From the NCBI GenBank assembly GCA_964016885.1, contig OZ024757.1:30132001-30196000 (forward strand): DNA of 64,000 bases, given 5' to 3'. The notes beneath the pieces are model-generated. The model was not told where the DNA came from, did no database searches, and saw nothing but the letters and a program-made list of their open reading frames with translations. The translations under genes and the position numbers were made by a program. The number at the start of each line of letters is the position of its first letter. Position 1 is the stretch's first letter. Origin of the DNA: Eledone cirrhosa. Lineage: Eukaryota. This document shows, one piece after another, positions 5,418 to 64,000 of this stretch.

Positions 5418-6127
5418 ACGCGCGCGTGTGTGTAATCCTTATGCATTTCTACAGTATTTTGACCAAACTTAAGACATAGGTTACTTATGTACTCCGGATA
5501 GTCATGGGAACTTTCATTTTTCCAGATATTGATTATAGGGCCTCCCGGCAGATAACCCCATTTAACCACTTCCTTGGAGTCGACTGAAGCACTGCAGTGC
5601 AATGCAACAAAACGTTATAACTTCTGGAGTTCACAACCGATTTTCACAAAACTTGACACATGGGCTATGTTTGTTCTACAGATGAATGTGAACTCTCAGA
5701 ATTGGCACATATTGAGTAGGGGACTGTTAGGGGCAGGAACCCCCTTTTGGAAAAAGCCGATGATTTTGTAAAAGTATAGTTTTCGAAGCAGCACTGAAGT
5801 ATTGACATAAATGGTATGCATAACTACTATTTAATACCCGAGCAACGCTGGGTACCTCTGCTAATAGAATAATATAATATTCATTCAGATATACACGTTA
5901 TATGTTGATATTATGAGTGTGTTTGTGTTTATTTATATATATGCATATGTGTGTGCAAATGTGTGAGCGTTTGAGTATAGAGAAAGAAAGAGATAAACAC
6001 AGAGAAGGAGACATAGATACTAATGTATATAGACATGTGGATAGAGAGAGAGATAGCTGTGTAAATAGAATATCAAAATATACGTATATGAATATATTTA
6101 TGCATATATATGTGTGTGAGAGAGAAA

Positions 6128-9861: not shown

Positions 9862-29539
<19,678 letters not shown>

Positions 29540-38845: not shown

Positions 38846-41800
38846 CTAGCTGGTTTCTTCCAGGTTATATTTGCTTCTTAATATAGAAATTGTGTTCATA
38901 TAAGCACTGAAATAAGGATAATAATAATAAAACACAAATAAATATATATATATATATACAAACAAATAGTAAAAAGGAAAAAAACTCAGCATAAAATGCT
39001 AGAGGGACTCCTCCAGTACAACATCAAAACATTCATCTACAAAGCAGGGACTTCTGCATTTAACTGTACCGGTCTCAGCCCTATATGCTCCTTCAATAGA
39101 AATTAGCATACAAAGAAGTGTGTTTTGAATTACATGGGTTGGAAACCACTTTGATGCAATGCATATAATCTATGAACAAACAGAAAATACATAATAACCG
39201 TAAAAAATGAATTAAAATGTACTAACCATTTCAATAACTATTAAACTCCTGGACAAACTACAGATAGAGTTTGTTTCGCCGAAGAATGCATCACATACGA
39301 CGGCTTATTATACAAGTGATGTTTATACACTGAAAAAATCTAGTAATAACTACAAAGTATGATAATCTCTGTTAAATGGAGAGGTCACCTTTGGAATACA
39401 AGGGAACTACATTTATGCAACAACTCTTACAAAAGATTTTTGCATTGTGTTGCATTTATTGAACTTTGCTTTGAAAAGTAAAATAAATTCCTTTGGTTTT
39501 AACAAGAAAGAAACTCTCCCAACATTAGAAAAAATAAATTTCTACTAAAATGATTTTAGCCTGTCTGGGAGGTCAGTAGAGTAGCCCCTGCTTTAATACT
39601 GACTTGGGCATTGTAAACCCGTCCAACCCTTGCTAGCAGGGAAAGCGGACATTAAATGATGATATTGATGATGATGATGTACAGACATAGCTGTGTGGTT
39701 AAGGAGCTCACTTCTCAACAACCTTATTTTTCAGATACAGTCCTAATGTGCGGCACCTTGTGAAAGTGTTTGGGGGTTATGAGTATAAATTTGGTAGATA
39801 GAAACAGCTAAAGCCTGTTGTATATATGTATGTGTGTGTGCGCGAGGGTGTGTATGCAAGTGTGTGTGTGTGTGCCTGTGTGTGTTTATGGGTTTATTGA
39901 ACGTGTATTAACATTGTTGGGTTGACCAATGCGTTGTGAAAGAAATTTGTTAGAGGTAAACTGTATGTTGGTAGTGCTGGTTCCACGACAAAAAGCGCCC
40001 AGTCCAACCTATAAGGTAGTTGTGCTGGTTCCATGACAAAAAAAACACCCAGTCCACTCTGTAATGTGGTAGTGCTGGTGCTACAATAAAATGCTCTCAG
40101 TCCACACTGTAAAATGGTTGATGTTAGGAAGCATATCCAGAAGAAACCAAACCAAAAACAGTTTGTATAAGCAAGGCCTCAGTACATGACAGCCCACCTA
40201 ACCCATGCAAACATGGAAAACAGATGATAAATGGAGATGATAATGTTGATGTTAAATGATGTTTCTTCTTACCTTCCATCTCGTAGAATCTTGAATTGAC
40301 CTTTGACACTGAGGTCAACAACTGTTGAACCTTGCCGTGACTCAACAGTACTCCCTAATGTGCCACCATCACAGATCATGTCCAATTCAGGCCAAAGGTT
40401 TTCAAATTCCTGTATTTTATCAGAAAGAAATGTGTAAAAACTAATATCATATACATATATGTCTGTATAGAATAAAAAAAATCTGAAGTAGTTTCAGATG
40501 TTAAAGTCCTTTATTGATAAGGCTGTGATACATATTTCAATGACGACAGCTTTATCAATAAAAGACTTTAACATCTGAAACTACTTCAGATTTTTTTATT
40601 CTATCTATTTTTTAATTCTACCTAACCAGTGCCATGATCTCGCAGACAGCTTCTTACATAATAATGTTAGATTCTCAAGGCAATCCAAATTAAAATGACA
40701 ATGAAACGAACAAAGATGATGTTCTTGGAGCCTTCGCCTGTTCCCTTGTGCATGTGTATATATATATAATTCACAAGTAAAAGATATATGAAAATAGAGA
40801 GGGCGAGAAAGGACTATATATCCAGAGAATACACAATATATTGTATATATACAAAGCACATATTTCAAATAAAAATATGTACTCAGCTCTGGACAAAGTC
40901 TATTGAGCTTTCTTATTGAGAAGCACAAAAATCAAACATATTTGATATGTTTTGATACCTTACATTTGTGTGTATATTTGCTTAACCCTTTAGCATTTAT
41001 ATTACTCTATATTTACCATTGTATTTTCTTGGTAAACGTTTTATCTTACATTATTATCTCACATAATATAGAATCTATGAGATTTTGATATCATTTAGTT
41101 TGAGAAAAATACCTTAACATCAGTATGACTGGCTGGTTACAGTTGGTTTGAACAGAAAGAGGTGAGAGAATTCTGGCCAGGTATGGTTGGTTTAAATGCT
41201 GAAGGGTTAAAGTTCTAAGGTGAATACACAAACAGAGACACACACACGTACACAAACATACACAATGTAAAATATACAAAAAAACCTTACCTTTATTGAC
41301 AAAGGACTTCGTTGGTCACTGATGTTAGCACTTGTGAGGGCAATGGGTCCACTGACACTCCGGGCCAAACCCCGTATGAACGTGTGATCTGGGATACGAA
41401 CACCAACATAATTTGTATCAGGGTTCAAATATTTGTTTAGTTGCTTTGACCGTTCAAACACTAAAGTTACGGGTCCAGGAAGTAAGTCATGTAGAAGAGA
41501 ACAGGGCACAGTGACATTGCACCATCTGAAACAAACCAAAAGATAATAATAATAATCTATATATATAAAGTTGTAGTTCCTGTCTGTTTGTTTGTTTGTT
41601 CACGAACTCCTCCTATGGTTTTGGAGATAGACCCCCATAACCTTATATATTCTGAAACTACATTGCCCAGGGTACTTGGATAAGTATATTTCATTTTAAA
41701 CAAAGGGTTCCCCGGGGGCACAAACCTCCGCTGAAAATTTTTTCCCTTCAATTTATATAAAATTTAAACCATAGGTAAATGACAAGATATGATGCCTATT

Positions 41801-44800
41801 CACAAAAGTTTTGAATTGATATTTTGAAAAAAATTATTTGCAAGAAACAAAATAAGAATAAGATTTAATAATGTTATTTTGATTTGATATATTACAAAAA
41901 ATAATGTTTCCCAATTTTTCATGCATTACATTTTACATTGAGTAATATTGAAATGCAGAGTTTTTCTCCATAAATTATATCACTGATTTAAAATCAATCA
42001 TCATTTTCTTACAAAAAAATGTGTGAAACGCAGCAAGGCGCGGGTAATTCGGCTAGTAGTAATAATAATAACAACAATAATGATATTAATAATGGTTTCT
42101 GGCACAAAGCCAGCAATTTGGGGGAGGGAGAAAGTCGATTAAATCAACCCCAATGCGTGATTGGTACTTTATTTTATCAACCCCGAAAGGATGAAAAGCA
42201 AAGCTAACCTTGACGGGATTTGAACTCAGAATGTAAAGCAACATAACTATGCAGCAAAGCATAGTGTCTGATGCTCTACCGATACTGCCAAATGTGCATG
42301 AGGTGCATCCAGGAGCGGTGACTAATCTCTCAGAGGCTGGGGTCACAAGAACAGTTAAAGAGCTCAAATGTGGCAAGGCTGCTGGGGAAGATGAAATCCG
42401 GCCCGAGATGTTAAAAGCCTTAAATAGAGAAGGTATTCTCTGGCTGACTCGTGTGTGCCGGGTTGCCTGGATCTCTGGAAAGGCACCTAAACATAGCAAT
42501 CAGGACTGATAATCCCAATTTTCAAAAAAGAAAACAAGAGAGATTGTTCCAATTAGAAAGAGATCTCCATGTTAAGCCGCCCCAGTAAAGTCTATGCTAA
42601 GTGTCTGGCAAAGAGATGTCGAGTTCAAGCTAACTGATGAACAGTGCAGTTTTCACCCCAGACACAGCACAGCTGACCAAATATCCACACTGCAACATCT
42701 CTTTGAGAAATTGTGGGAGTATTGCCAAGAAGTATATACTTGTTTTTTCAACCTTGAAAAGGCATATGTCTGTCCTAAAATATCTAGGTGATATTCTGTA
42801 GTCATTGCTTATACACCACTTAAGAAAGTGTATTGGGTGTATTTCATCTTGTCACAGACACTAACACTTTACAGAGTGTAATCAGTGCTTTTTTTATCTT
42901 GTCACTAGCACTAGCTTGACCACTTTACAGAGTATACTGGGTGTATTTTACAGTGGCACCATCACTACTACTTTACAGTATTTGTGGCACCAACACTACC
43001 ACTTTACAGAGGATACTGGGTGTATTTTACCGTCACACTATCACTATCACTTTACAGAGTGTATTGGGTGTCTTTTTATATTGTCACTAGCACAACTACT
43101 TCACAGAGTGCACTGGGTGTATTTTAATGTGGCACCATCACTGCAACTTTACAATATTCGTAGCACCATTACTACCACTTTACAGAGTGTACTGGGTGTA
43201 TTTTATCTTGTCACCACCACAACCATTTTACAGTTTGTACTGTAAAGTGGTTGGTGCTATGAAGGGCATCCAGCTAAAAATGCAATAAAAACAACCACCA
43301 AATAAACCAATTGATTTGAAGAAAGAAAGAAACATTACTTAGAAACATCTTCAACATCTGCAATACTAATAGCAATTGGTTTCAGGGGATTTCGTTTCTT
43401 TATCTTGTATATATTGTCAACAGCATCGTTATTTTGAGCCAGACAAGCAATACCATATATGGTGTCAGTGGGAACAGCAATCACACCTCCAGACAGGAGT
43501 TTCTTGGCAGCAATGGCTATCTGGGGTTTGACATCTAGAAACATAAGGAAACAAAACACACATTTATTTTATTCTAGTCAAGACTACATTGGTAACAAGG
43601 CGGTGAATTGGCAGAGTTGTTAGAACGTCATATAGAATTCTCTGAAGTATTCATTCCAACTCTCTACCCTCTGAATACAAATCCCATTGAGGTCAACTTT
43701 ACCTTTCATCCATTTAAAGTCGTTAAAAAAAGTACCAGTATAGTACTAGGGTCGATTTTTCCTTTTTATCTCTTTCTCACTTCCTTTCTTTCACTCTCTC
43801 TATCCTGTATTCAGACCTGGAGAGGAGATGGTCTCCGCCTGGTTTTAGAATGCCTTAAGAAATGTTGTATGCCACTACAGCGCACCTATGACTCCATCAG
43901 GAGTTACAGGACCATACATACATTGGTGACACACTAAAATGCTACACCTAGAAATTATTGGTGACACACAAAATGTCACAACACACCTAGTGATTATTCG
44001 TGACCCTATAAAGTGTTGTTGACACACCTAGAGTTTATTGGTAACACAATAAAATGCTGTGGCACAGTTGAAGGAGTGGGTAAAAAAAGCAAAGAAAATC
44101 CTGGTCCCAAAACATCAAGGACTGGACTGGTCTCAACATTACGACCCTTCTGTGTATAACAGAAGACAGAGGCCAGTGGCAATTGATTACTGCCAGAACG
44201 TCTAGAGCAGAGATTCTCAAACTTTTGGGGCCACCTTCACAGCCACGTAATACTCTATTTCCAGAAAGATCAACCTACACACAAATTGTAAATAATATAT
44301 AATAAATGATATAATATATACTACGTATAAATAAATATTTTATATTTTACTATATTTATATATATGCATCATTTAATATTTAATATACTATTATATCTCT
44401 ACCCTTCATCGATCCCTTAGGCCACAGTGCCCCCTGGACCCTCTCAACGCCCGGAGGGCGGCCGTAGCGCCCACTTTGAGAACCTCTGGTCTAGAGTAAC
44501 ACACACACACCAACGACTGGCTACACCAGTTACAGGGAAATGGTGATGGTATACAAGTCCAGTTCATTGCTCAAGAAAAGGTTTTACAATCCCTTATGAT
44601 GTGCGGCCGATTGTCACGTTTGGTGGTGACTTGATGGTCGGTTTTGTTTTTGTTTCCTTTTTTTCTTTATCTGGCTTTGAATTATATTTTGGTGCATTGT
44701 ATTTGTAAGGTTCCAAGAAATAGTTAATTGTATTTATTGTAAGTGTTTACATTTTTATTCTGAAAGAATTATGAACAATTTGTAATGTTATTTATAAAAC

Positions 44801-44907
44801 TTACCTTCTGTAATAGTCAATTGTACAATTTTTGCCATGGTGTTTACTGGTTCTAGGACTCTACTAAACTTAAATCTACAACTGAACAATAAACTAAAGG
44901 TTTTCAT
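38846..44907 (-). CDS. YRDC: Threonylcarbamoyl-AMP synthase (YrdC/Sua5 family); 5 coding exons; 243 aa from the first ATG or 220 aa from the second
   Basis: Exons (minus): 44805-44907 (second ATG at 44838), 43339-43534, 41291-41525, 40273-40409, 38846-38906; GT-AG, total 732 nt. Motifs VIAVPTDTIYG, KKRNPLKPIAI, LLPGPVTLVF, VGVRIPDH, PIALTSANIS, GSTVVDLS. Confidence 0.95.
41556..42056 (+). mobile_element. Non-autonomous Helitron-like element, 30 bp from the YRDC exon 3 acceptor
   Basis: Starts A|TC(TATATATATAAA), has an internal (GTTT)n tract, and ends with a GC-rich hairpin then CTAG|T. Similar 3' ends at about 3873-3902 and 5835-5865. Confidence 0.7.
42290..42780 (+). mobile_element. Degenerate RTE-clade LINE fragment in YRDC intron 2
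   Basis: LKCGKAAGEDEIRPEMLK...; EQCSFHP.HSTADQI..LQHLFEK.WEY...CFFNLEKAY. Confidence 0.8.
43598..43920 (+). mobile_element. SINE subfamily with the same head and a longer 3' part ending in (CATAC)n; other copies at 35760-36303 (-), 33530-33770 (-), 57630-57965 (+)
   Basis: Shared GGCGGTGAATTGGCAGAGT head and ...CAGGCCTGGAGAGG...CCTACGACTCCATCAGGAGTTAC tail. Confidence 0.75.
44208..44488. mobile_element. hAT-type MITE of the same family, in YRDC intron 1
   Basis: TIR CAGAGATTCTCAAA / TTTGAGAACCTCTG; TSD GTCTAGAG at 44200-44207 and 44489-44496. Confidence 0.87.
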
Positions 44908-45226
44908 TAAGCTGACAAATTCTAAGAATTTGGCTGGCTACTCGCTTGCTTACGCAATAGTTTCATTTCGAACAAACAAGTATATATATATATATATATC
45001 CTTACAAAGTCGATAAGTTTACAGTAACTTTAAATACATTCAGGCAGAGCTTCTCCTCATGAACAGAACAAATGTGGTAGGTTAAAACTCCTATAGACAG
45101 TTAATTATCTAGAATTAAATTGATTTCCGTTTAGATTTTCAGTTAATAGCCGGTATACGTGTTGACGGTGAAACTTGTTTATAATGCACGACGTTAAAAT
45201 AGACCAGATCTGCACCGCCTATAATG

Positions 45227-45601
45227 CAGGGCTCTCCAAAGTAATCGATATCAATCCACCGGTGTCTCGAAAGGGGGACTATCAAGGGGTGTCGATTGAA
45301 CTTTTTTTAGCCTAAACCTGACATCTGCATAAGAAATTAAAATAGATAAGCAGACATGTCAACCTCTAAAAACCCCAAAGGGGAATACCATGAAATACCA
45401 AAGTGGGTGGAAGGTCTCCCTGTCGGACTGGGAGAGTTGACAGATCTGCATTAGACATACAATAAAATACAACTTGCTTATATAGGTTTCTGTCTATTTA
45501 TTTTATATTGCTAACGAATTTATTTTTATACATACTTGAGGAAGATGAGGGTCTAAGATACCTTGAAGAGGTCGAGGCTCTAAAATATTTAGAGACCGCT
45601 G
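45227..45601. mobile_element. Old hAT-type MITE inside the YRDC/CDK5RAP1 intergenic region
   Basis: Left TIR CAGGGCTCTCCAAA vs right (reverse complement) CAGCGGTCTCTAAA; degenerate 8-bp TSD CTATAATG / CTGTAATC. Confidence 0.55.
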
Positions 45602-45774
45602 CTGTAATCTTCTGTTGCCATATTTCTCATGGCATACACTGTTTTTAAATTAATTAATGGAGAATTCACAGAGATTTACTAAAATTATTAATCATTTTGT
45701 TATTAAGATAGTATTTTTAATTCCCATTATTTGGTTTGTGGTCACCTGAAAAAATTACACCGTTTCAAACTAGC

Positions 45775-45813
45775 ATGGCGACCTTTTCTAGTTTTGTCCT
45801 TCGGATCATCTGA
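45775..45813 (+). promoter_or_regulatory. Upstream ORF MATFSSFVLRII*, formed by a 64-bp tandem duplication of the CDK5RAP1 start region
   Basis: 45747-45810 is a near copy of 45811-45874. Both copies contain agcATGGCnACCTTTTCTAGTTTT; the first ends at TGA 45811-45813. Confidence 0.6.
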
Positions 45814-45838
45814 AACAATTACACCGTTACAAGCCAGC

Positions 45839-47078
45839 ATGGCTACCTTTTCTAGTTTTTTCCTTCGTCGTTTCTGTTTAAATGATGTTGTCTTTCAGCA
45901 ATATGCTGTCAACAAATTATTTCATCATTTGTCTTCTGCTAAAATTCCAGCTAAATATAGCTGTTCCCATTACTGGGATGTACCGATCTGTACACAATGT
46001 ACGTCTTCAGTTAAACCTAACGAAAGCTCAGCACTCGGTGAAAATAAATTAGAAACTTTCAGAAAAAAACTATTGCGCGGTCCCAACATCCATGACTTCT
46101 TATCTTACGGAAATATAGATGAAACAGTTACAAATCAGACTGATAACTCTGCAGAAATAACCGATGAAATACCTTATTTACATAAATCTTTATTTAAAGG
46201 TCAAGGACGTAAAGGTCGGTGTGTGTTTATATAATTAATTAGCTGCTATAGTAAACAATATTGCATTAGTATGTACAGTAAGGTAAATGATAACTGTGTG
46301 AACCTGCATGTATGGGTATGTGTGTGTAAACATAAATATGGAAGAGGCTATGTAGCCGGTAAGAGTGCCAGACATCATGAGTTGCGGCCCGAGTTAAGAC
46401 AAGTTGAAATTTTTTCCACCATCAATTATTCAAATCATTTAGTCGTCCATTCGTAACGTACGTTACGCTTTAGTTACATACACACGCATAAATACATAAA
46501 CAAATACAGACATCAGAAGTGCAAACACACTGACATCTACTCATACATATTCATAAATAGACACATTATACAAAATAATTATTACAAACACGTACACCTA
46601 TGTAATGATTGAGGAAGGAAGAGGCTGGTGAAACGCTATAGTGTATTGCGTGCCTACCAAAATGATAAATGCCCGGACAGCCTGAGAGAAGGTCCTCTCA
46701 TATGCAGAACCTCAGGAGCATGTCATTTCATAGACCTAGCAGACAGAATAGAGAAAACTTGTCAGTACTGGAATATATATATATATATATATGTGTGTGT
46801 ATATATATACCATCATTATCATTGTTTAACGTCCACTTTCCACGTTAGCATGCAAGTTGGGTCAGATGACTGTGACTTGCTCATATAGAACTGTTTCTGG
46901 CTAGGTTTCTAAAGCTGGATGCCCTTCCTATATATATATATATATATATATAGTAAAGATAACGGAGCAAAGGACTCGCGTATAATCCTGTAATTGAATG
47001 AGCTCAAAGGAAATAGTTTTCGTTGTTCTAAACTCCTATAATGAAAAACACACTCTTCGGTGTCTTTCCCCTCTATAT

Positions 47079-47123
<45 letters not shown>

Positions 47124-50100
47124 TCACATTCATACAAACACACATACACTCACACACAGCGTAGCAAATGGAACGCCAGCCGCTGTTTTGCTATAGTTTT
47201 TCACCTCCCTTCCTTTTATACACACATACATTCACACAAACATCCACACATTGTGTGACAGACAGAAGTCACTCAAATGAATATATAGATATACACACAC
47301 ATAATGTATCCCTATGATCTGTTAAGTTTAGAACTCTCAAAATAAAATGTCTGCTGGATTCTCACAGCAATGATTGTGTCATTGCAGTTTATCTGGAAAC
47401 CTATGGATGTCAAATGAATGTTAACGATACAGAAATTGTTTGGTCAATATTGGAGAAGGAGGACTTTCAAAGAAGTTTTGATATTACTGACGTAAGAATC
47501 TTATCTCATGTTTTAAAAGAAAAAGAAAATAAAGAATTAACTATTATTAATAACCCACCCACCCCCTCACGACTCTCCCCGCCCCTTCTCTCTATCAAAC
47601 ATCCCTCACACACTACATCCCTATCTACTAATCAGCCACCGATACCCATTACTCATTGCCTTGCCAAATCACCACATACACCTGTAACTTCATATCTATC
47701 TCCCTTCTCAGAGCTGAGTGGGCTATATAGTTGGGTCTATGACCAACTACCTCTCCAGTGATGGTGCCATGAAAATGCACTCTGTATATCCGTAAGGTGG
47801 CTGGTGACACACACAGACAAGTTGCTGTTGAGATGTATACACACTCACTCTCTTGCATATGTGTATTCATGTCTATATTTCTGCTTTCAGTGTGATGTAG
47901 CCTTCCTGATGACATGTTCCATTCGTGAAGGAGCTGAAGTTAAGATATGGAAACGTCTAGAATACTTGAACTTCTTGAAGAAGAAAAGAAGAAAAAATAC
48001 TATGAAAATTGGACTTTTGGGTATGTTGCATTAAAATGTTTGTCCAATATAAATTTTGTTGAAATTAACCCTTTAGCATTCACATTACTGTATATTTACT
48101 ATTGTATTTTCACATAAAAGGCTTTATCTCACAAAATTATCTCACATTATATCGAATCTACAAGATTTTGATATATATTTTGAGAATAATACGTTAATGT
48201 TGGTATGAGTAGCCAGTTACGACCGGTTTGAACAAAAAGACGTGAGAGAATTCTGGCCAGATATGACCGGTTTAAATGCTAAAGGGTTAATTATCAAAAT
48301 TCGGAAGGTTCCAGAGAGGTTGTTGATAGCTTCTACTACCTTAGGTGACCTAATTAGCAGTGAAAGGGGTTGCTCCAAGAGCATAGTAGCTAGAATAAGA
48401 ACAGGATGGAAAAAGTTCAGGGAGCTACTACCTCTGTTAACAACAAAATGTTTCACTCTACAAACAAAAAGCCAACTGTGCCTGCATGCAATGTTGCATT
48501 GTAGTGAGACACAGGTAGTGAATGCAGTAGATATGCGAAGGCTGGAGAGAGATGAAGTGAGCATGTTTCATTATATGTGCAATATTAATGTGCATGAATA
48601 AACTGAGAGAAAATCTAGGTGTAAGAGGAATCAGATGTAGTGTTTAAGAGAGAAGACTGCATATAGATGGTGATTGTTGAGTAAAGTAGTGCCAAGAAAT
48701 CCCAGTGGAAAGTAGCTACAGTAGAGGAACAGATGAGCTGATCCGAAATTGCTGAAGCTCACAGAGGAGATGATGAAGGAACACAACAAATGGAGGGATG
48801 GTGTGCTGAAATGTACATCCACTTTTCCATACAAGCCTGGAAAAGAGGATGTAAAATGATGGTGATGGTTAGTTACAACAGAAAAAGTCATAGTGGATGG
48901 TATCATATTGATATTTGATGATCATCATCATGATAATTATGTGGATGATTGAATGGTTTGAATATGAGATGTAACTCACCATTGCAATGTGGTATTCTAT
49001 GCAACAGGATGTATGGCAGAACGGTTGAAAACCAAAATTCTGGAACAAAGCAAGACAGTTGACATTGTCTGTGGTCCTGATGCATACCGAGATCTCCCTC
49101 GTCTTTTGAGCGTTTCCTATGAAGGGCAGACTGCAGGTAAGTAAAGCCAACTATCTCCTGTTCTTTGACTTTCTTTTTGTGCCGAATTTCTCTTGTAAAA
49201 TGTGTGACTTTGTCTCTGTGTTAGAAATCGTTATATTATTATTTATCACTCTTCTGCTAATAAAAGAAATTGTCGCAGTAACAGCTCTCTAAAAGAACAT
49301 TATTTTCCATACATAGACATATGGCGTAGCTCTCTAAAAAATAAAATTATTTTCTATACATAGCCATATGCTGTAACTCTCCAAAACATTCTATTTTCTC
49401 CACACACACAACCATATGCTGCAGCTCTCTAAACAATATATTATTTTCTATACATAACTACACGCTGTAGCTCTCTAAAATATTCATTATTTTCTACACA
49501 CTGCACATGTGGTTGTTGTTAGGAAGGGCATCTAGCTGTAAAATACCCAGCCAAATTTACAGTCCTCACCAGAGCAAGGTGCGACATGTCTAACCATGGC
49601 CAGACTTGCCTCCCAACATGGACGACCCGTCTAAGCCATGCAAGCCTAGAAGAATTGACACTAAATAAAAATGATGATGATGGCACACAGCCACATGCCA
49701 TGGCTCTCTAAAAAACACTATTTTCTTCACACAACTACATGCTGTAGCTCTCTAAAAATATATATTATTTTCTACACATAACTACATGCTGTAGCTCTCT
49801 AAAAGAAAAACACTATTTTCTATACTTTCTACATTGCTTCAAGTAAACTACAACATTCACCTATTTTGTTTAATACCCTGTCTTGTTTCTAGTGAATGTT
49901 CTGCTGTCTTTGGAAGAAACTTATGCTGACATTATGCCAGTCCATATCAATAACACCAGTAAATCTGCTTATGTGTAAGTTTAATGTTTTATTTCCTTTT
50001 TAACCCTTTTGATATCAAACCACATGAAACTGACCCTGGTCCTATGATACAAAACTGTTTTAAATCATTTGTATTAATATTTGTAGAGTATGAGTTCAAA

Positions 50101-51874
50101 TTCCATCAAAGTTAGCTTTGCGTTTCGTCCTTACAGGGTTGATAAAATAAAGTACCAGTAATGCACTCGGGTCAATTTAATCGACTTTCCTCTCCCCAAA
50201 AAATTGTTGGCTTTGTGCCTAAATAAGAAACAATTGATATTAGTAGAGTAAAGGATGGCAGAGTAATTAGAGCGTTGGACAATTGCTTAGCAATATTCAT
50301 TACAGCTCTTTACATTCTTAGTTCAAATCCTGCTGAGGCCAATTTTGTCTTTCATCTTTCTGAGGTTAATAACTGGAGTCGCCCCTTTGTTTGGCTAGTT
50401 TATATTTGCCTAAAAACCTTCCATAATTTTATACAAGAACCATTAATTGATATTCCATTCTAATTTAGAAACAGATCTAGTAATTTTGGTGTGGAATTGA
50501 TTATACTGCCACCAGTACTCAACTGGTACTTTATTATGACAATAGGTTATAAGTTCAATTCTTGGACCAAGCAGTACAATGTGTTCTTGAACAAGGTATT
50601 TCAATTCATGTTGCTTTTCATGATAGGACTAGGAACCCTATCATTAACCCTTTAGCATTTAGACCAGCCATATCCGGACAGAATTCTCTCACATCTTTCT
50701 GTTGAAACTGGCCATAACCAACTGTTCATACTTATGTTAAGGTATTGTTCTCAAAATAAATATCAAAATCTTGTAGCTTCAATATAATGTGAGGTAAAAC
50801 CTTTACCGTGAAAATACAATAGTAAATATAGAGTAATATAAATACTTGTTTCTACTTTAGGCACAAGGCCAGCAATTACCCAGTGCATTACTGGTACTTT
50901 ATTTTATCGACCCCGTAAGGATGAAAGGCAAAGTCAACCTCGGCGGGATTTGAACTCAGATCGTAAAGGGACGTAACTATGCTGGAAAGCATGGCGTCCG
51001 ACCCTCTACCGATACTGCCAATCCACCGCCCTGAGTAATATAAATACTAAAGGATTAAAACACCCAAGAAGTCTCTTATGAGATGCAACATTGTATGAGG
51101 CCAGCTAAACCTACACAGGTGTGAGCTATAACAATAACATACATATATGTGTGTATGATAAGACTGGAGCCCCCACTCATTAAAACACCCAAGGAAACTC
51201 CTGAGATGCAACATTGTATGAGGCCAGCTAAACCCACATAGGTGTGAGCTATGACAATAATATACATATATATTTATATGATAAGACTGGGACCCCTTAT
51301 TAAAACACCCAAGGAAACTCCTATGAGATATGATATTGTAGGAAGTTAGCTAAACTTACATCTACATAGGTGTGAGATGTAAATTTCATTTCATTTTTTT
51401 TTTCCTTTGTCATTCCTAGGTCAATCATGCGTGGCTGTGATAATATGTGCTCTTATTGCATTGTCCCCTTCACACGGGGTCGGGAACGGAGCAGACCTGT
51501 GGATTCCATCTTGGAAGAAATTCGCATCCTATCAGATCAGGTAAAAATGTCTTTTGTTGTGAGTATAGTGGAGAGTAGACATCGGTCAAAGGTCTGAAAC
51601 TAGGAAAAAGAATGTGCTTATGTATGTATATATATATATATATGTGTGTGTGTGCATGTTTGTATGTGAGTGTATGTGTATATATATATATGTGTGTGTG
51701 TGTGAGTGTATCGTTTAACATCTATCTCCCACACTAGCATGGGTTAGACAGGAGTTGTCTCACTTGAGGCAAGGTTGATCGGGTGACCGTCTCGCTCGCA
51801 TGGCAGATTTTCTACGGCTGGATGTCCTTCCTAACACCAACTACATTTACAGTGTGGACTAGGAGCCTTTTATG

Positions 51875-51919
<45 letters not shown>

Positions 51920-54900
51920 ATGTATATGTGAGTGTATGTATGTGTTTATGTATATATATGTTTATATAATTTGTCATGTTATTCATGTTGCAGGGCATCA
52001 AGGAAGTGACACTTTTGGGGCAGAATGTGAATAGCTACCGTGATCTTTCCACCTGGCAAAGTGGTGTTGACTTCAACCTCACAGAAATGGCACCAGGTTT
52101 CAAAACTGTTTACAAAACTAAAAAGGGAGGACTACGCTTCGCTGACTTGTTAGACAAAGTTTCTTCCATAAACCCGGAAATGCGAATCCGTTTCACATCA
52201 CCTCATCCGAAGGATTTCCCAAGTTCTGTAAGAAATGTTTAACCCTTTAGCATTTAAACTGGCCATATCTGGCCTGAATTCTCTCACCATTTTCTGTTCA
52301 CACCAACCATAACCAGCCCCTCATACTGGTATTAGCCCTTTAGCATTTACATTGCTCTATATATTCTATTGTATTTTCATGATAAAGACATTACCTCACA
52401 TAATATCAAATCTATAAGATTTGGATATTATCTATTTTGAGACCAATACCTTAACATCAGTATGAGTGACCAGTTATAACAGAAAGAGGTAAGAGAATTT
52501 GTTGTTGCTGTGAATGTTATTTTTATTTATTTTTTTTATTTTCATTTTAAACAGGCCGAGTGTCCCTTTAGAGCCCAACACATCTACACACCCTCACCCT
52601 TTCATGAGCACATTTCTAATGAAATACACTCTATTTTAATTAATTAATGAAGACTTTTGAGTGATTTAGTAAAATTTTCATTACTAAGATAGTAACTTAA
52701 TGTAAGGTTCTTATATGAAATTATGTTGGAAGTTTTAAATTTAAATTGGACACCTTTAAAATGGGTGGTTTTATTTCCATAAAACCAGAACCACTTTTGG
52801 CCAGGTCGGTAACTAAAGGGTTAAAACAAACAGTTTAGCAGAGTCGGCCTTACAATCGTGAGGTTGTGACTTCAACTCTCAAACCAGGCTTTGCGTTGTG
52901 TTCTTGAGCTAAACACTTTATTTCATGTTATTCCAGTTCACTCAGCTGTAGAAATGAGTTTCAACATCACTGGTGCCAAGCTGTATCGGCGTTTGCCTTT
53001 CCCTTGGACAACATCGGTGGCGTAGAGATGGGAAACTAGTATGCATGGGCAACTGCTGGTTTTCTACAAACAACTTTGCCCTGAGATGTGCCTCAGGGGG
53101 GAACTTTCTAGATGCAAATCCCATGGTCATACATGACCGAAGGGAGTCTTTCTTTACTTTTTACCTTTTTGGTATGGAAAGGAATAAAAAAGTAAATTGT
53201 TGTTTGTTTGTATTTGGTCCTATAAAATAGAAAATGTCTTGTTTCTGATGAATGCAGGTGTTGCAATTAATCAAAGAACGCCACAATATCTGCAAACAGA
53301 TTCACCTACCTGCACAAAGTGGTAACAACTTTGTACTGGAACAGATGCGACGTGGCTATACAAGAGAAGCCTATCTTGATCTTGTGCAGCACATTCGTCA
53401 AGTTATACCAGGTAAGAACTACAAAATAAATAATTGCAGCATTATTGTTTTGTTTTGATTTTTTTTAATTCCATTTTTTTTTATTTAGATTTTTTCATGT
53501 TTATCATGTTTCTGATGGAGGCACATGGCTTAGTGGTTAGAGCATTGGCCTTGCAATCGAAAGGTTGTGAGTCCAATTCTCAGACCGGGTGATGTGTTGT
53601 TTCCTTGAGCAAGACACTTTATTTCACATTGCTCCAGTTTACTCAGCTGTAGAAATGAGATGATAGGGACTGGGGTCCCTATCATTCCACTGCAAAGTGG
53701 TCGTGGAGGTGCCACGGCAAAAAAGCACCCAGTCCACACTGTAAAGTGGTCGTGTAGGCACCACGGAAAAAAGCACCCAGCACTCACTGTAAATGAGGTT
53801 GGTGTTAGGGAAGGCATCCAGCTGTAGAAATCAAGCCAGAATCAGTTCCCGTCCCACCCTTGCAAGCAGGGAAAAGCGGACGTAAAATGATGATGATATG
53901 TTAAAAACATATTTTCAATAATTTTATCACAGTAGAGTCAGTCTACCATTCTATATTTCCAGACATACATCTGTCTACTATTCTGTAAGTCCAGATATAC
54001 ATCTGTCAAATATTCTGTAATTCTAGACATACATCTGTCAAATATTCTATAATTCCAGACATACATCTGTCTACCATTCTATAACTCCAGACATACATCT
54101 GGCTACTATTCTATACTTCCAGACATACATCTGTCAAATATTCTGTAACACCAGACATACATCTGTCTACTATTCTGTAATTCCAGACATACATGTCAAA
54201 TATTCTGTAATTTCAGACATATATCTGTCAACTGTTCTATAATTCCAGACATACATTTGGCTACTATTCTATAATTCCAGACATACATCTGTCCAGTGAC
54301 TTCATAACTGGTTTCTGTGGAGAGACGGAAGCAGCTCATCGTGACACTGTCTCATTAATGCAACATGTCCGCTACCACTACGCCTTTACTTTCCCATACA
54401 GCATGAGGCAGGTGAGTTGATATGGGGTGACAGGTGACAGACACTGAGGTGTGTTGACAGGGTGACAAGGGGATAAATACATGTCAGGTGACAGGCACAG
54501 CTGAGTTGATAAGGTAACAGGCATAGGGGTGAGTTGACAAAGTGACATAGTTGAGTTGACAAGGTGACAGACAGAATTGAATGTCTGACCAAAACTTTGA
54601 TTTCCTATTTGTCATGTCATAAATGATTTTTTTTTTTTTGTAATTCTTTTATATCTTAACCTGTACAGAAAACCCGTGCTTATCACCGCCTCATTGATGA
54701 TGTCCCCATGGACGTTAAAGCCAGGAGATTGGTAGAATTGGCAGAGACATTTCGTGAAATAGCTTCAGAATTGAACACACAGCAGATTGGAAGCTACCAG
54801 ACTGTTCTCATCAGTGGAGTAAGTTTGTCCTCTTCGATGGCTGCCACTTTCACCCTTTTGTTACCACATCTCTAATGAAAGACAATGCCTATGATTTTCA

Positions 54901-56303
54901 AATAATTTCGATAATAATTAAGAATTTAGGAGTTTAGTAAGTAATTTTCTCATTATTAACCCTTTAGCATTTAAATTGGCTGTATCCAGCCAGAATTCTC
55001 TCACCTCTTTCTGTTCAAACTGGCCATAACGAGCCACACTGTTCTCAAAATCTTATAGATTCGATACTATGTGAGATAATTGTGGGAAGTAAAGCCTTTA
55101 CCGCGAAAATACAATAGTAAATATAGAGTAATGTAAATACTAAAGGGTTAAGAAAGGATTTTACATAAAATTATGATGGAAGATTTTTAGATAAATATAA
55201 ACACTAAAAGTTAGCTATATTACTAAATCCTTCCAAATTCTTGATTATCTTCAAAATTATTTGAAAATGAGGCAGGCAGTCGTTCATTAGAAATATGTTA
55301 ATGAAAGGGTTAATTCTTCACACAGATACAGTGTCTATTTAATTCTTTATTCTTTCATCCAGACAAGTAAAAGATCTCAGCTGGATCTTGCCGGCCGGAA
55401 CGATGGCAACACAAAGGTGATTATACCTCAGACTGAAATACCAATCTCTGCATCCTCAGAGACAAGAAGACCAATGGAAGTGAGTGACTATGTTGTTGTT
55501 CAAGTGAGTATTATTTTTTTCTAGATTGTTCTATGAGGGTGCAGTGGGCAGGGGAAAGGAGTTCAAATCTAGTTCTGCTCTGAGGCTAAACAACTGTATG
55601 ATCATGATGATCATCATCATCATCAGCATTTAATGTCTATTTTCCATGCTTGCATGGGTTAGATAAACTGTCACATACACTAAAATAGTTACTTAACATA
55701 TTGTTGGAAGATTTTAATTTACTTGACAGGATGCATAGCTCAGAGATCAGGGAGTCACTCTAAGTTGGTGCTACTTCTCCGGATCAAGAGATCACAGCTC
55801 TGGTTCTATTGGGCATGTGGTTAGTATGTCTAAAGAAAGAATTGCAAAACCAACCAGCAGGAGTCCCAGAAGTATACCAGCTACAAGGGAGATGGTTGGA
55901 TATCCATAAGCTCTGTTGATCTCACTTGCGGACAGTTGCTTCTGAGGACTCTGCCTCAATGACCCTCTCGGGAATATCTGGGTACAGATTTCAATTTAAA
56001 TAGGAACTCTTTAAAATGGGAGGTTTTGTTTCATAGAACCAGAGCCAGTTTTAGTCAGATTAGTATTAAAAGGATTAAACAACAAATACAGCTAGATATT
56101 TTACTAGCCTCTATTCTCAGAAAGTTTTGATTAGTTTGAAAATATATTCTAACAAATATTTTCTTGTTTTCTTCTAAAAGGTAACTGGTGCCTCTTCTCA
56201 GGTGTTGAAAGGTGAAGCTCTCTATCACACAACTTTGGCAGACTCCAGCAGGTACGAAGCCAACAAAAGGAATCAAATAGAGTGGTCACAGTTGAATGGA
56301 TGA
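45839..56303 (+). CDS. CDK5RAP1: Mitochondrial tRNA methylthiotransferase (MiaB-type radical SAM; UPF0004, radical SAM and TRAM domains); 12 coding exons; about 624 aa
   Basis: Exons: 45839-46214, 47388-47491, 47891-48020, 49008-49136, 49893-49974, 51420-51540, 51994-52227, 53258-53411, 54281-54411, 54669-54818, 55363-55503, 56181-56303 (1875 nt, in frame). Motifs [37 protein letters not shown] (CxxxCxxC), [47 protein letters not shown]. The N-terminus looks like a mitochondrial presequence. Confidence 0.96.
48065..48290. mobile_element. piggyBac-like MITE of about 220 bp (TTAA target site; termini CCCTTTAGCATT...AATGCTAAAGGG). Copies at 38421-38645, 40982-41210, 50644-51058, 52239-52500, 54956-55151, 56435-56638; partial at 62885-62986 and 63420-63532
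   Basis: TTAA flanks, terminal inverted repeats and conserved internal sequence; present in both orientations. Confidence 0.85.
48300..48870 (+). mobile_element. Degenerate 3' fragment of the same RTE-X-type LINE family, in CDK5RAP1 intron 3
   Basis: [17 protein letters not shown]...MLHCSET...RRLERDE matches the 58698 ORF; frameshifted. Confidence 0.8.
49280..49835 (+). repeat. Degenerate 45-50-bp minisatellite upstream of CDK5RAP1 exon 5, interrupted by a LINE 3'-UTR fragment
   Basis: Recurrent GCTGTAGCTCTCTAAAA...TATTTTCTACACA. Confidence 0.8.
50847..51032 (-). mobile_element. Full-length tRNA-derived SINE with a 16-bp target-site duplication, inserted in a MITE; representative of the most abundant family here (roughly 20 full or partial copies)
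   Basis: A-box-like TGGCAGTATCGG, B-box GAGTTCAAATCC, central GCCTTTCATCCTTACGGGGTCGATAAAATAAAGTACCAG resembling a Deu/Nin-type domain. TSD GAGTAATATAAATACT at 50831-50846 and 51033-51048. Other copies include 16480-16665, 33853-34030, 42095-42290 and 57355-57515. Confidence 0.88.
51055..51378 (+). repeat. About 120-125-bp tandem repeat (about 2.5 copies) upstream of CDK5RAP1 exon 6
   Basis: TTAAAACACCCAAG... starts at about 51055, 51180 and 51300. Confidence 0.85.
53517..53660 (+). mobile_element. Second tRNA-derived SINE family; related copies at 52830-52960 and 50560-50615
   Basis: TGGCTTAGTGG A box, GTGAGTCCAATTC B-box-like motif, TCCTTGAGCAAGACACTT core. Confidence 0.65.
53941..54293 (+). 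repeat. 32-bp minisatellite, 11 copies, made of the CDK5RAP1 intron 8/exon 9 junction
   Basis: Unit about TTCCAG|ACATACATCTGTCTACTATTCTATAA; acceptor AGs end at 53962, 53994, 54026, 54058, 54090, 54122, 54154, 54186, 54216, 54248 and 54280. Confidence 0.93.
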
Positions 56304-56717: not shown

Positions 56718-59700
56718 CTATTTCTTTTTCTGCCGCTTATGTCTTTGTTTGTGCTTCTTTTGAAGCGGTGGAGGTTTCGTTCCTGTCGTATTCAACAATA
56801 CACTGCGGTCTATAGGTTTGATGATGGTACCTAGCTTGGTTTCAATTTTAGGTTTGACTAGTTCCTTTACTACAGTCTGGGGGTTCCAGTCTTTACCAAT
56901 AGGGGCCGCTATAGTAGCTGCAAAGTCTTTGGCATCAACGTAAGGAAATGGTAGTTCTTTAACCTACAATGAAAACATATCAATAGCATTGAACCAATAA
57001 CAATGGATAATTGTGTGGTGTGTAGTGTAATGATATAATGGGTAGTGTGTGATGTGTAGTATGTGAACATAATGTATAGTGTGTGATGGTAATGGAGGTA
57101 TAGTGTGTGATGGTAATGGAGTGATAGTGTGTGATGGTAATGGAGTGATAATGTGTAATGGTAATGGTGTGATAATGTGTAATGGTAATGGTGTGATAAT
57201 GTGTAATGGGGTGATAATGTGTAGTGTATGAACATAGTAATGTGTAATGATATAATGCATAGGGCGTAATGGAATGGTATGATGATTTATAGTGTGTAAA
57301 GCTGATGATAACGGTGTGTAATGTGTGAACATGATGTAATGTAAAGGTAATAATTGTTTCTACGTTAGGCACAAGGCCAGCAATTAACCAGTGTATTACT
57401 GGGACTTTATTTTATCGACCCCGTAAGGATGAAAGGCAAAGTTAACTCAGAATAGCAAGGGCCGTAACTCTATATGTCAAAGCATGGCGTCCGACCCTCT
57501 ACCAATACTGCCAATCCAATGTACAGACATCATCGTTTTTCCATCCACATTTCCATGCTGGCATGGATTAGATGGGATGCCATTTACCTTTCCTGATACC
57601 CACCTTTTTTATTACTTCTTACAACTAATGCGATTCGGTAGTCGCTAGAACATTGGATAGAATGCTTTGAAGCATTCATTTCGGCTCTCTGAGTTGAAAT
57701 CCCGCCAAGATCAACTTTGCCTTTCATCCATTATTGGTCAATATAAAAAATTATCAGTCAAGTACTGGGGTCGATTCTTCCTTTATATCTCTTTCTCACT
57801 TCCTTTCTATCACTCTCTTTATCCTTCTCTGGAGGAAATCTACTGTATTCAGGCCTGGAGAGGAAATGGGCTCCACCGGGCTTAAAAAGTGCACTAAAAA
57901 CGCCATATTAACATATGGTGCCCCTACGACTCCCTCGGGAGTTATGGGTTTATACTATACCATACAACTAGTGCAGGGATACAGTGTACCTATTCAACAA
58001 ACCAGAGAACACACATGATAATGTGTAGTGTTAAAGTTAACCTCGGCAGGATTTGAACTCAGAATGTTTAGTATCAAAATGATTAAGATGTGATGTTGAC
58101 AATATGGCGTTTTGTAGTGCTTGTGGTAAGAATGAGGATGATGTTAATGATGGTTGAATGTATTGAGTGCTTCCAGGTGAGTAGCAACACATCAATACTA
58201 CTTACCTGGTATTTGCATATAGCGGTGTCCTTCGTTTCATCAATGATCACATGTCCAAGACGGTCGTCTTTCCGAGGTTCAGGCATCGGAGCCTTCTTTG
58301 TAAATCTGAGTAAAAAAGAAACAAAGTATTCCAGTACATAGATAAAGTATATACACAATATACAAACAACACGTAGTATAATACTAATCATCATCATCAT
58401 CATCATCACCGTTTTACGTCCGTTCTTCCACGCTAGCATGGGTTAGACGGGTTGTCCTGTTGTGGGCAGTGTCTGGTCGGCTGACCATGCCTTGCTCATA
58501 CAGGAACTGATCTGGCTTGATTTCTACAGCTGGATGCCCTTCCTAACACCAACCTCATTTACAGTGAGTGCTGGGTGCTTTTTCGTGGCGCCTACACGTC
58601 CACTTTACAGTGTGGGCTGGGTGCTTTTTTGCCGTGGCACCTCCACGACCACCTTGCGGTGGGGGGGGGGGGGGGGGGGGCATATTGTTTATATGCTTCA
58701 GCATGTACCCATGGGAGGTCGGGTACCCTGTATTACTGCGTGACGCCAGAAGTCACGGTCGTGTGTCATTGACTTTGAGAGGTGTAGTTGGGTAAGGTCG
58801 GCTTTTATCACCTCATCCCAAGTCATCTTGGGTCTCCCCACTCCGCGGTTTCCATCAACTTCTAGTGCTCTGCACCTTTTTATGCAGCTGTCATCCTTCA
58901 TACGCATCACATGTCCATACCAGCGTAACCGCCTCTCCTGCACGCAGCATTTGATTCCTCTTATGCTCAGTCTCTCTCTCAATTCATTTATGCTTTGTCG
59001 TTCACGTATATTACTGTTACACATCCATCGGAGCATGCAGGCTTCGTTTCTCTCTAATCTACGTAAGTCTTCCACCTTCAGCGCCCAGGTCTCACTACCA
59101 TGCAACATCGCTGTTCGGATACACGCATCATACAGTCTGCCTTTCATTCTGAGGGAGAAGCCTTTTGCAGCTAGCAGTGGTAGTAGTTCCCTAAACTTCT
59201 TCCATCCCGTTCTTACCCTAGTTATTGTACTTTCTGAGCACCCACCTCCGTTGCTAATTCGGTCACCTAGGTAGCAGAAGCTGTCTACTGTTTCTACAGG
59301 GCCCTCCCAGAGATTGGTGGTACTTGTTTCCTGTGGCTGTTTGCTTGCTGTTTCAGCACAGCTGCTGCATGTGAATCCTACATTCTTAATTAAGCTTCCT
59401 GAGATCCCGCTACATCTCTTGTGTACCCATTGTTTGCATTTGGGGCAAAGAATGGAGTTCCTACCTACACCTTTCCTACATACTGAGCAAGGCCATTTCC
59501 CTGAGGGGATCTGGGTTCTGTTTTCTCGTCTACTTATAAGGACCTTAGTCTTTGTCATGTTGACTTTGAGGCCCTTTCTCTCTAGTCCCTGCTTCCAGGT
59601 TTGGAATTTATTCTCTAGTTCTACCATAGATTCAGCTATGAGTGCGAGGTCATCAGCATACAGGAGTTCCCATGGGCATCCGGTCTTAAACTCCTCCGTT

Positions 59701-62700: not shown

Positions 62701-63703
62701 TTGTGTAAATACCCAACACTAGTAAATTTATCTGAAAAGTCTAACCAATAACATCATACACTACTGTCTTCTACACTAGAAAATAAAGCCCCACAGTTAA
62801 TAAGTTTACTTTATTCTATGTAAAAATATATCATGTAAATACAATTTAACGAAAAAGAAATAAAATTTTAGATTGAGAAGAAAGAATGGAATGTAAAATT
62901 AAAATTTCATAGATTCGATATAATGTGAGATAAAGCCTTTACCATAAAAATACAATTGTATATAAAGAGTAATGTTAAAGGGTTAACAAAGGTAATATGG
63001 TCAGTAGCTGACTGACTTACCTTAGCGCGAGATTTCTCAACTGTTTTCATTTTGTCGAGGAATTTCTCTGGATCACTTTTAGCCAATTCATTCACATTAG
63101 TCTTTTCTTTCTCCAGTTTATCTCTCTTCATCAGACGTCGATAGCTGAAACAAAAATGATGAAATTACAAACTGCAAGAATAGTGACCGCATATATGTGT
63201 GTTTTATGCACTCAAACTTTTAAAATTAAAATAATGTCAATCAACAGATGATAATTATCATAAATACCGTATTTTCTTCCTAATCATTACATAGATATGT
63301 GTGTATGTAATAGTTATTATGTATGTGTCTATTTATGAATATGCATGAGTAGATGTGTGTGTGTCTGTGTGGGTTTGCACTTTTGTTGTCTGTATTTATG
63401 TATTTATGTGTAGATGTACTGTTCTCAAAAGAAATAACATCAAAATCTCATAGATTCAATATTATATGAGATAAAGCCTTTACCATGAAAATACAATAGT
63501 AAATATAGAGTAATGTAAATGCTAAAGGGTTAAAAAGTGCCCTCCTACAGCTCCATTAGGAGTGGCGGATCCATACGTACATAAATACATTCTTAAGATG
63601 ATACATACCGCTTGCTTTTAATCTTGTTCTTCCACTGTTGTTTGATTTCATGATAATTCAACAAAGCCCTATATTTCATCAGCTCACTCCGCCGTATTTG
63701 GGC
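56718..63703 (-). CDS. UTP14: U3 snoRNA-associated protein 14 (SSU processome); last 6 coding exons; the gene continues beyond the window end
   Basis: Exons (minus): 63609-63703, 63021-63144, 62039-62116, 61165-61814, 58206-58305, 56718-56963, with consistent phases. Motifs KIKSKRYRR, ERISLKH, AFANDDVIEEFKEEK, DLTLPGWGSWAG, HVIIDE, LPFPY, PIGKDWN, TKLGTIIKPI. Confidence 0.93.
58389..60243 (-). mobile_element. 5'-truncated RTE/RTE-X-type LINE with an uninterrupted RT ORF (about 515 codons), Cys-rich PHD-like motif, 3' UTR and (GAT)n tail; in a UTP14 intron
   Basis: ORF 58698-60113 extends open to about 60243 (NYRGIKL). Motifs QFGFVPGKGTTDA, FVDLEKAFDRV, GVHQGSVLSPLLF, LLYADDL, CSVC...CPKC...HKRC, RRLRWYGHVMR. 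Confidence 0.92.
60669..60704 (+). ncRNA. Minimal hammerhead motif of a second family; related copy at 12735-12770 has the core mutated to CTGGTGA
   Basis: tctt-CTGATGA-aGGActagcaTCC-GAAA-tgtt-aaga. The other copy is tctt-CTGGTGA-aGGACtagcGTCC-GAAA-cgtt-aaga. About 110 bp of downstream flank is shared by the two copies. Confidence 0.55.
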
Positions 63704-64000
63704 CTGAAAGGAGAAAATTATTCCACATTTGTACACATCATTATAACGAACAACAAACGTTTTAGAGACATTTTCCCTTGCTCAAACAGGCGAGTTAGTT
63801 AGCCTGTATAGGAGTAAAGGGAACATTACTGACTTCATATTCATCATTGGGCCCTTTTTGAGGCAATATTTTGCAGCCATCAGCGTCTTTCTTGGTGAAA
63901 AGTTCATAGGCTGACTATGACGGATTGATGCTAGAGCTGTGAAATCTTGCATGCATTAATTTCAAGTCTTCTTATTAATAACGTCATTATTTTTTTTTTC

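What the first reader, a model, noticed from the sequence alone, without database searches (positions are those of the whole stretch)
38846..56303. Two tRNA position-37 modification genes, YRDC and CDK5RAP1, lie head-to-head under 1 kb apart
Seen: the divergent ATGs (44907 and 45839) are separated by 931 bp, about 550 bp without the old MITE, in a region where introns are otherwise kilobases long. Established: YRDC makes threonylcarbamoyl-AMP for t6A37 in cytosol and mitochondria; CDK5RAP1 adds the 2-methylthio group of ms2i6A37 on mitochondrial tRNAs. Inference: this may be a co-regulated A37-modification module on one bidirectional promoter, with the ribosome-biogenesis gene UTP14 right beside it. 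The two enzymes are not sequential steps (ms2t6A is made by CDKAL1), so any link would be regulatory.
Basis: partly seen in the sequence, partly recalled or inferred. Interest (0 to 1): 0.72.

Follow-up and report, generated by a model that had tools for sequence, protein, structure and literature searches.

The report
Old mollusc tRNA-enzyme gene pair
Two genes predicted to modify the same position of mitochondrial transfer RNAs start back to back 931 bases apart in this likely octopus genome, have consecutive database records in another octopus, an argonaut, a freshwater mussel and two abalones, and likely share one ancient housekeeping promoter rather than a dedicated tRNA-modification switch.

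Summary
Confirmed: intact YRDC (5 exons, 243 aa, minus strand) and CDK5RAP1 (12 exons, 624 aa, plus strand) start 931 nt apart. A spliced contig shows YRDC is transcribed with a collinear leader, and one CpG-retaining zone covers both first exons. New here: the pair is not local to this species. Of 14 molluscs where both genes could be placed, 5 have consecutive records (octopods, a bivalve, abalones), 5 share a chromosome or scaffold with order unresolved, and 4 have them apart; 0 of 8 non-molluscs share a record. The link therefore likely predates the cephalopod-bivalve-gastropod split, though orientation outside octopods was not seen. Corrections: 931 nt is an ordinary intron length here (median 881); the 'old MITE' is two repeats of about 105 nt, one missing in a related species; UTP14 is tail-to-tail. 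The obligatory partner enzymes (TRIT1, Kae1 family, CDKAL1) are unlinked, no expression correlation was obtained, and rough arithmetic expects about one same-pathway pair by chance. Verdict: a new, likely ancient member of the known class of conserved divergent housekeeping pairs; a dedicated A37 module is unproven.

The parts
38846..44907 (-). YRDC coding span, 243 aa; exons 44907-44805, 43534-43339, 41525-41291, 40409-40273, 38906-38846; second in-frame ATG at 44838 (codon 24)
   Evidence: 205 of 243 residues identical to O. vulgaris YRDC; exon 1-2 junction present in X4 record 9
44908..45153 (-). Minimum YRDC 5' leader, collinear with the genome; holds a TA run (44968-45008) and three short upstream ATG frames (45060, 45039, 44966)
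   Evidence: X4 records 9 and 14, which meet across the skipped TA run (join inferred); ATG list; contigs cannot show the true start
45154..45838 (.). Largest interval left for the inferred shared promoter (685 nt); densest CpG at 45120-45340 (o/e 1.2); DRE-like palindrome at 45243-45250
   Evidence: o/e 0.78 over 44908-45838 against 0.35-0.36 in gene bodies; 0 of 255 gene-body windows reach it; motif label recalled
45351..45453 (.). Short multi-copy element with terminal inverted repeats (MITE-like), missing in organism B
   Evidence: joint 45339 to 45462 and record 20 in run X5
45606..45720 (.). Fragment of a second, unrelated dispersed repeat; covered by organism B contigs
45742..45867 (+). 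64-nt tandem duplication (89% identical) that copies the CDK5RAP1 start; the upstream copy gives a 12-codon out-of-frame upstream ORF from 45775
45839..56303 (+). CDK5RAP1 coding span, 624 aa; exons 45839-46214, 47388-47491, 47891-48020, 49008-49136, 49893-49974, 51420-51540, 51994-52227, 53258-53411, 54281-54411, 54669-54818, 55363-55503, 56181-56303
   Evidence: 478 identities to O. vulgaris CDK5RAP1 (605 aa); X4 record 15 (1967 nt) covers 45934-46214
56718..64000 (-). 3' part of UTP14, convergent with CDK5RAP1; continues beyond the window; not on the shared promoter
   Evidence: (PF04615 at 56718-56963 and 61161-62000)

Best explanation
YRDC and CDK5RAP1 are intact single-copy genes whose start codons face away from each other across 931 nt, and they likely run from one unmethylated bidirectional housekeeping promoter that likely formed in an early mollusc and has held the two genes together since. 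Mechanism (inferred): one open, CpG-retaining stretch of at most 685 nt loads polymerase in both directions; a chromosome break there would cut both promoters, so the pair survived even the cephalopod genome reshuffling, while small transposons that land in it are tolerated. Both genes would be broadly co-expressed as mitochondrial-translation housekeeping genes. Their products are predicted to act on different tRNA sets at A37 (t6A with Kae1-family partners; ms2i6A after TRIT1), so any coupling is through shared transcription, not a shared pathway step.
For: Shown: gene models; one orthologous locus each; spliced X4 contig joining YRDC exons 1 and 2 exactly at the intron ends, with a collinear leader to at least 45153; a single CpG-retaining zone over both first exons, 0 of 255 gene-body windows as high; the same layout in organism B contigs 20 and 21. 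Consecutive or near-consecutive accessions on the same record in O. vulgaris (CAI9738366-69), Argonauta (GAB1606961/62), Potamilus (KAK3588483/84, 682-kb scaffold), Haliotis asinina (XP_067674131/32) and H. rubra (XP_046584378/80, 850-kb scaffold). Known class: 68.6% of ancient conserved pairs in Lottia are 5'-5', and such pairs are closer and more co-expressed than controls (PMC3514665, passages); about 23% of human housekeeping genes analysed have a divergent start within 300 bp (PMC10887517, passage).
Against: No transcription start was mapped. The CDK5RAP1 contig begins 95 nt inside the coding region and X4 has no depth at 45746-45849, so its 5' end is unseen. Orientation and distance outside octopods are not shown; accession order gives adjacency only. 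The pair is apart in two Patella species, Plakobranchus and Biomphalaria, so the constraint is weak. CpG o/e is also high (0.74) in the gene-poor DNA left of YRDC, so CpG retention marks 'not a methylated gene body' and is not specific to promoters.
Confidence: 0.62

Rival explanations
1. Selected A37 module: the pair is kept because mitochondrial t6A37 and ms2i6A37 must be balanced, so the promoter is a dedicated co-regulator of both branches.
For: Linkage across three mollusc classes. In human the two branches cover 5 and 4 mitochondrial tRNAs (PMC11014344, PMC5714233; passages). For the A37 set alone, chance expects only 0.001-0.015 conserved pairs (assumed inputs). Both N-termini are basic, as targeting peptides are.
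Against: Over all equally narrow gene sets chance expects 0.3-1.8 such pairs. TRIT1-like (C2), CDKAL1-like (C3) and Kae1-family exons (C2, C17) are unlinked. Human YRDC is mostly cytosolic (PMC5951830). Apart in 4 of 14 molluscs and 8 of 8 non-molluscs.
Confidence: 0.2
2. Neutral left-over adjacency with two independent promoters: slow rearrangement has simply not separated the genes in some lineages.
For: Repeated separation in gastropods; two repeats and a tandem duplication tolerated between the starts; no shared promoter shown directly.
Against: A gap under 1 kb persists in two species with a repeat-rich background, and coleoids broke much ancient microsynteny (PMC9023564, passages); the older YRDC neighbours WRB and SH3BGR are on other chromosomes here.
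Confidence: 0.14
3. Sequential pathway: mollusc CDK5RAP1 also methylthiolates t6A37 in mitochondria, which would make the pair a two-step mini-operon.
For: Only the linkage itself; MiaB and MtaB/CDKAL1 are homologous.
Against: The O. vulgaris and Potamilus proteins pass the MiaB cut-off (402 and 411 bits, cut-off 355) and fail both t6A-specific models; the best solved relative is MiaB; CDKAL1-like and TRIT1-like exons exist elsewhere in this genome.
Confidence: 0.04

Closest known systems
Conserved ancient microsyntenic pairs in 5'-5' orientation, e.g. HSPD1-HSPE1 and HADHA-HADHB (Irimia et al. 2012, PMC3514665; passages read, supplements not available)
   Same: Unrelated nuclear genes for mitochondrial functions, divergent, under 1 kb apart, linkage kept over deep time and lost in some lineages.
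   Different: Seen here only in Mollusca (0 of 8 non-molluscs share a record); the products are not subunits of one complex or steps of one pathway; shared promoter and co-expression untested.
Human YRDC and yeast Sua5 (threonylcarbamoyl-AMP synthase; PMC5951830, PMC4615747, passages)
   Same: Sua5/YrdC domain with family motifs intact; basic N-terminal extension.
   Different: An in-frame second Met at codon 24, also seen in Octopus, Argonauta, Potamilus and Haliotis, resembles the yeast two-AUG route to dual location more than the human weak-signal route (inference).
Mammalian CDK5RAP1 / bacterial MiaB (PMC5714233, passages; PDB 7mjv)
   Same: UPF0004, radical SAM and TRAM domains, MiaB-type motifs, MiaB model over cut-off.
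   Different: Activity in molluscs untested; genomic partner differs.
Microsyntenic block 5970 (WRB-LCA5-SH3BGR, with YRDC in Lingula and Parasteatoda; Robert et al. 2022, PMC8851819, supplementary file 4)
   Same: YRDC sits in a conserved compact neighbourhood.
   Different: Other partners; CDK5RAP1 is not named in the held (cut) file; WRB and SH3BGR are on other chromosomes in this genome.

Membership tests
Bidirectional (head-to-head) gene pair | Adjacent genes on opposite strands, 5' ends facing apart | tested here: met
Bidirectional (head-to-head) gene pair | Transcription starts within 1 kb | tested here: inconclusive
   ATGs 931 nt apart and YRDC leader collinear to at least 45153; CDK5RAP1 5' end not covered
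Bidirectional (head-to-head) gene pair | One unmethylated or CpG-retaining region over both first exons | tested here: met
   o/e 0.78-0.9 against 0.35-0.36 in gene bodies; indirect proxy, not specific to promoters
Bidirectional (head-to-head) gene pair | Shared elements drive both directions; co-expression above matched pairs | not testable with these tools
   no RNA run on record; contig depth is not expression
Conserved ancient microsyntenic pair (Irimia 2012) | Non-paralogous neighbours in distant lineages | tested here: met
   consecutive records in Cephalopoda, Bivalvia and Gastropoda
Conserved ancient microsyntenic pair (Irimia 2012) | Linkage shared across phyla | tested here: not met
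   0 of 8 non-molluscs on one record; chiton, nemertean and brachiopod could not be paired
Conserved ancient microsyntenic pair (Irimia 2012) | Conserved 5'-5' orientation | tested here: inconclusive
   seen in the window and organism B only
YRDC/Sua5 (TsaC) | PF01300 domain with KxR and SxN motifs (motif names recalled), intact frame | tested here: met
   TIGR00057 over cut-off for the O. vulgaris orthologue
CDK5RAP1/MiaB | UPF0004 + radical SAM CxxxCxxC + TRAM; MiaB model over cut-off, MtaB/CDKAL1 models under | tested here: met
   cut-offs tested on the O. vulgaris and Potamilus orthologues, window exons scored singly
CDK5RAP1/MiaB | Converts i6A37 to ms2i6A37 in mitochondria | not testable with these tools
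   inferred from orthology (PMC5714233)
Pathway gene cluster (operon-like) | Consecutive steps or obligatory partners are linked | tested here: not met
   TRIT1-like, CDKAL1-like and Kae1-family exons on C2, C3 and C17

The most novel reading that the evidence does not exclude
Molluscs have kept, for about half a billion years, a two-gene A37 control unit in which one promoter sets the levels of both branches of mitochondrial anticodon-loop modification (t6A and ms2i6A); lineages that split the pair are natural controls for whether such pairs are held by pathway-level selection.
Probability: 0.2. Interest if true: 0.62.

Novelty: new member of a known kind. Interest (0 to 1): 0.38.

Why it matters
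It adds an apparently unreported, mollusc-wide gene pair to the conserved divergent pairs, one that survived the coleoid genome reshuffling. Because the pair is intact in some molluscs and split in others, public RNA-seq could test directly whether linkage raises co-expression of two functionally parallel genes. If a dedicated A37 control unit were shown, it would be a rare animal case of tRNA-modification genes regulated as a unit. Without that result it is an ordinary kind of housekeeping arrangement.

Tried and rejected
No RNA holder listed; X4 is treated as RNA only because its contig is spliced, and it comes from the same study as the best DNA holders. Read support beyond 43250-46350 was not obtained, so the other exons rest on homology and splice sites. 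Metagenome scan with the YRDC alignment: 80 loci, mostly prokaryote-like, 0 of 80 with a MiaB/CDK5RAP1 hit; no use for orientation. YRDC-CDK5RAP1 fusion: 0 of 20 long YRDC proteins scanned carry radical SAM domains. Promoter motifs: of 6 patterns, CCAAT and GC boxes are absent, TATA hits are not informative, one DRE-like palindrome (3 in the window) and one ATGGCG were found after the fact and are not counted as evidence. Species found in only one of the two protein lists (chiton, Solemya, oysters, Mytilus, Lingula, Batillaria, Lymnaea and many others) were dropped from the tally. UTP14 microsynteny in other species was not tested. Literature: searches listed no paper describing this pair (listings only; 24 of 26 papers naming both genes were listed, none on molluscs by title). 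Supplements: PMC3514665 not available; PMC9023564 had 0 name hits in 7 files, but may list genes by model id; PMC8851819 files 3 and 4 are cut. These could hold the pair.
Full report
1. Observation. The window lies on contig C18 of a 3.0-Gb genome; the closest named proteins are from Octopus and Argonauta, so the animal is likely an octopod. YRDC runs on the minus strand from ATG 44907 to the stop ending at 38846 in 5 exons (243 aa; 205 of 243 identical to O. vulgaris). CDK5RAP1 runs on the plus strand from ATG 45839 to 56303 in 12 exons (624 aa; 478 identities to O. vulgaris, 450 to Argonauta). All 15 introns have AG/GT ends and neither frame has an internal stop. Each has one orthologous locus in the genome (run with a stricter first look, which also found a 36%-identical paralogue on C2). 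The starts are supported by orthologues. The 931-nt spacing is real, but it is not short compared with the introns: these are 257-1813 nt, median 881. It is short compared with the surroundings: no clear gene was seen in the roughly 28 kb left of YRDC (long ORFs only), and a LINE-rich tandem array fills about 40 kb beyond UTP14.

2. The spacer. It holds a TA run, a roughly 103-nt element with terminal inverted repeats at 45351-45453 (66 matches from 40 scored of 841 candidates; alignment), a separate repeat fragment at 45606-45720 (46 matches from 40 scored of 2377 candidates; limits) and a 64-nt tandem duplication that copies the CDK5RAP1 start. There is no single 380-nt MITE. In run X5 (organism B, another species) one 968-nt contig covers YRDC exon 1 and most of the spacer to 45650 and lacks the first element; a second contig covers 45633-46348, including CDK5RAP1 exon 1. 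The two overlap, so the layout is likely the same there. CpG o/e is 0.78 across the spacer, 1.2 at 45120-45340 and 0.9 over CDK5RAP1 exon 1 and the start of intron 1, against 0.35-0.36 in both gene bodies; 0 of 255 overlapping gene-body windows reach 0.78. From my own knowledge of invertebrate mosaic methylation, this fits one unmethylated promoter zone between two methylated gene bodies. Gene-poor DNA to the left is also high (0.74), so the signal is not specific.

3. Transcripts. No run was on record as RNA. Of the 4 runs laid (of 8 listed), X4 has a 1060-nt contig that joins 44805 to 43534 exactly at the intron ends, which marks spliced RNA. It runs on through 44967 into the TA run, and a second contig covers 45009-45153. 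YRDC thus has a collinear leader of at least about 246 nt and no sign of a distant first exon. A 1967-nt contig covers CDK5RAP1 from 45934; its 5' end is unseen. At most 685 nt remain for both core promoters if CDK5RAP1 starts locally.

4. Conservation. Accession order and record length were used as a proxy for gene order (species matched by eye, those in only one list dropped). Of 14 molluscs, 5 have consecutive or near-consecutive records on one record: O. vulgaris, Argonauta hians, the mussel Potamilus streckersoni (locus tags 012892 and 012893 on a 682-kb scaffold), Haliotis asinina and H. rubra (850-kb scaffold). Five share a record of the same length with order unresolved: O. sinensis, O. 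bimaculoides, H. cracherodii (accessions 36 apart), H. rufescens and Argopecten irradians. Biomphalaria glabrata has both on one chromosome about 1,300 accessions apart in two assemblies. Patella caerulea, P. vulgata and Plakobranchus have them on different records. None of 8 non-molluscs (Capitella, Amphiura, Oratosquilla, five fishes) has them on one record. In supplementary file 4 of PMC8851819 (held text is cut; main text not read) YRDC of Lingula and of a spider lies in a WRB-LCA5-SH3BGR block with no CDK5RAP1 named; WRB and SH3BGR are on C11, C2 and C24 here. The simplest history is a link formed in or before the common ancestor of cephalopods, bivalves and gastropods (Cambrian, date recalled) and lost more than once in gastropods. 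Orientation outside octopods is inferred, not seen.

5. Enzymes and partners. The O. vulgaris and Potamilus orthologues pass the MiaB model and fail both t6A methylthiotransferase models; the best solved relative is MiaB. CDKAL1-like exons lie on C3, a TRIT1-like exon on C2 and Kae1-family exons on C2 and C17. In mammals CDK5RAP1 makes ms2i6A37 on four mitochondrial tRNAs and CDKAL1 makes ms2t6A on cytosolic tRNA-Lys (PMC5714233, passages); YRDC with OSGEPL1 makes t6A37 on five (PMC11014344, passages) and is mostly cytosolic (PMC5951830, passages). The genes each enzyme depends on are not in the cluster. UTP14 converges on CDK5RAP1 (stops about 414 nt apart) and continues beyond the window (weak Pfam hit), so it is outside the promoter.

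6. How it most likely works. Shown: layout, intact genes, YRDC transcription, CpG retention, linked records in three classes. Inferred: one bidirectional housekeeping promoter, whose small size makes any break costly, keeps the genes together and co-expressed. This is the behaviour described for conserved 5'-5' pairs (PMC3514665, passages) and for housekeeping promoters (PMC10887517, passages); ancient microsyntenies in squid and octopus are more co-expressed than random blocks (PMC9023564, passages). Whether the shared function matters is open. With assumed inputs (330-1000 conserved divergent pairs, 3000-6000 candidate genes, 12 A37 enzymes) chance gives 0.001-0.015 pairs within the A37 set, but 0.3-1.8 over all equally narrow sets. 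The coincidence is suggestive and no more. Odds: generic ancient bidirectional promoter 0.62, dedicated A37 module 0.2, neutral adjacency 0.14, sequential ms2t6A pathway 0.04.

7. Novelty. Nine searches (listings only) showed no paper on this pair, and the scan's notes hold none; unseen or cut supplements may list it. Other notes on this genome describe comparable old divergent pairs (unchecked), which shows the class is common here. It is a new member of a known kind.

Noticed in passing
window 45839-45970: Likely frame swap in the CDK5RAP1 targeting peptide: the frame from 45839 matches Argonauta, while the annotated N-terminus of three Octopus species matches a different frame starting at 45882, which is closed in this genome. 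An indel seems to have replaced the first part of the peptide in that lineage. Runs X1 and X4 agree with the window sequence where they cover it.
   Followed up: partly
window 44838: Second in-frame Met (codon 24) of YRDC, also present in Octopus, Argonauta, Potamilus and Haliotis and matching the annotated start in Patella; may give cytosolic and mitochondrial forms as in yeast Sua5.
   Followed up: partly
window 45742-45867: 64-nt tandem duplication creates a 12-codon upstream ORF that copies the first codons of CDK5RAP1; three short upstream ORFs also lie in the YRDC leader.
   Followed up: no
   Followed up: partly
P0427, P0464, P0468, P0471, P0481, P0489, P0490, P0498, P0499, P0502, P0503: 11 of 20 long YRDC proteins scanned carry an N-terminal exonuclease/phosphatase domain, 7 of them with a PDE12-like N-terminus: a recurring PDE12-like/YRDC fusion in unnamed organisms.
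   Followed up: no
window 58698-60272: 524-aa reverse-transcriptase frame (LINE) inside a UTP14 intron; a near-identical frame occurs in L095.
   Followed up: no
L092:9300 to L096:10000 (G000 C18, right of the window): About 40 kb of tandemly repeated multi-kb units built from LINE fragments, upstream of UTP14.
   Followed up: no
window 9865-10161: Minus-strand frame ending in a cysteine motif and hydrophobic tail, like a Ly6/quiver C-terminus (label recalled); no Pfam hit.
   Followed up: partly
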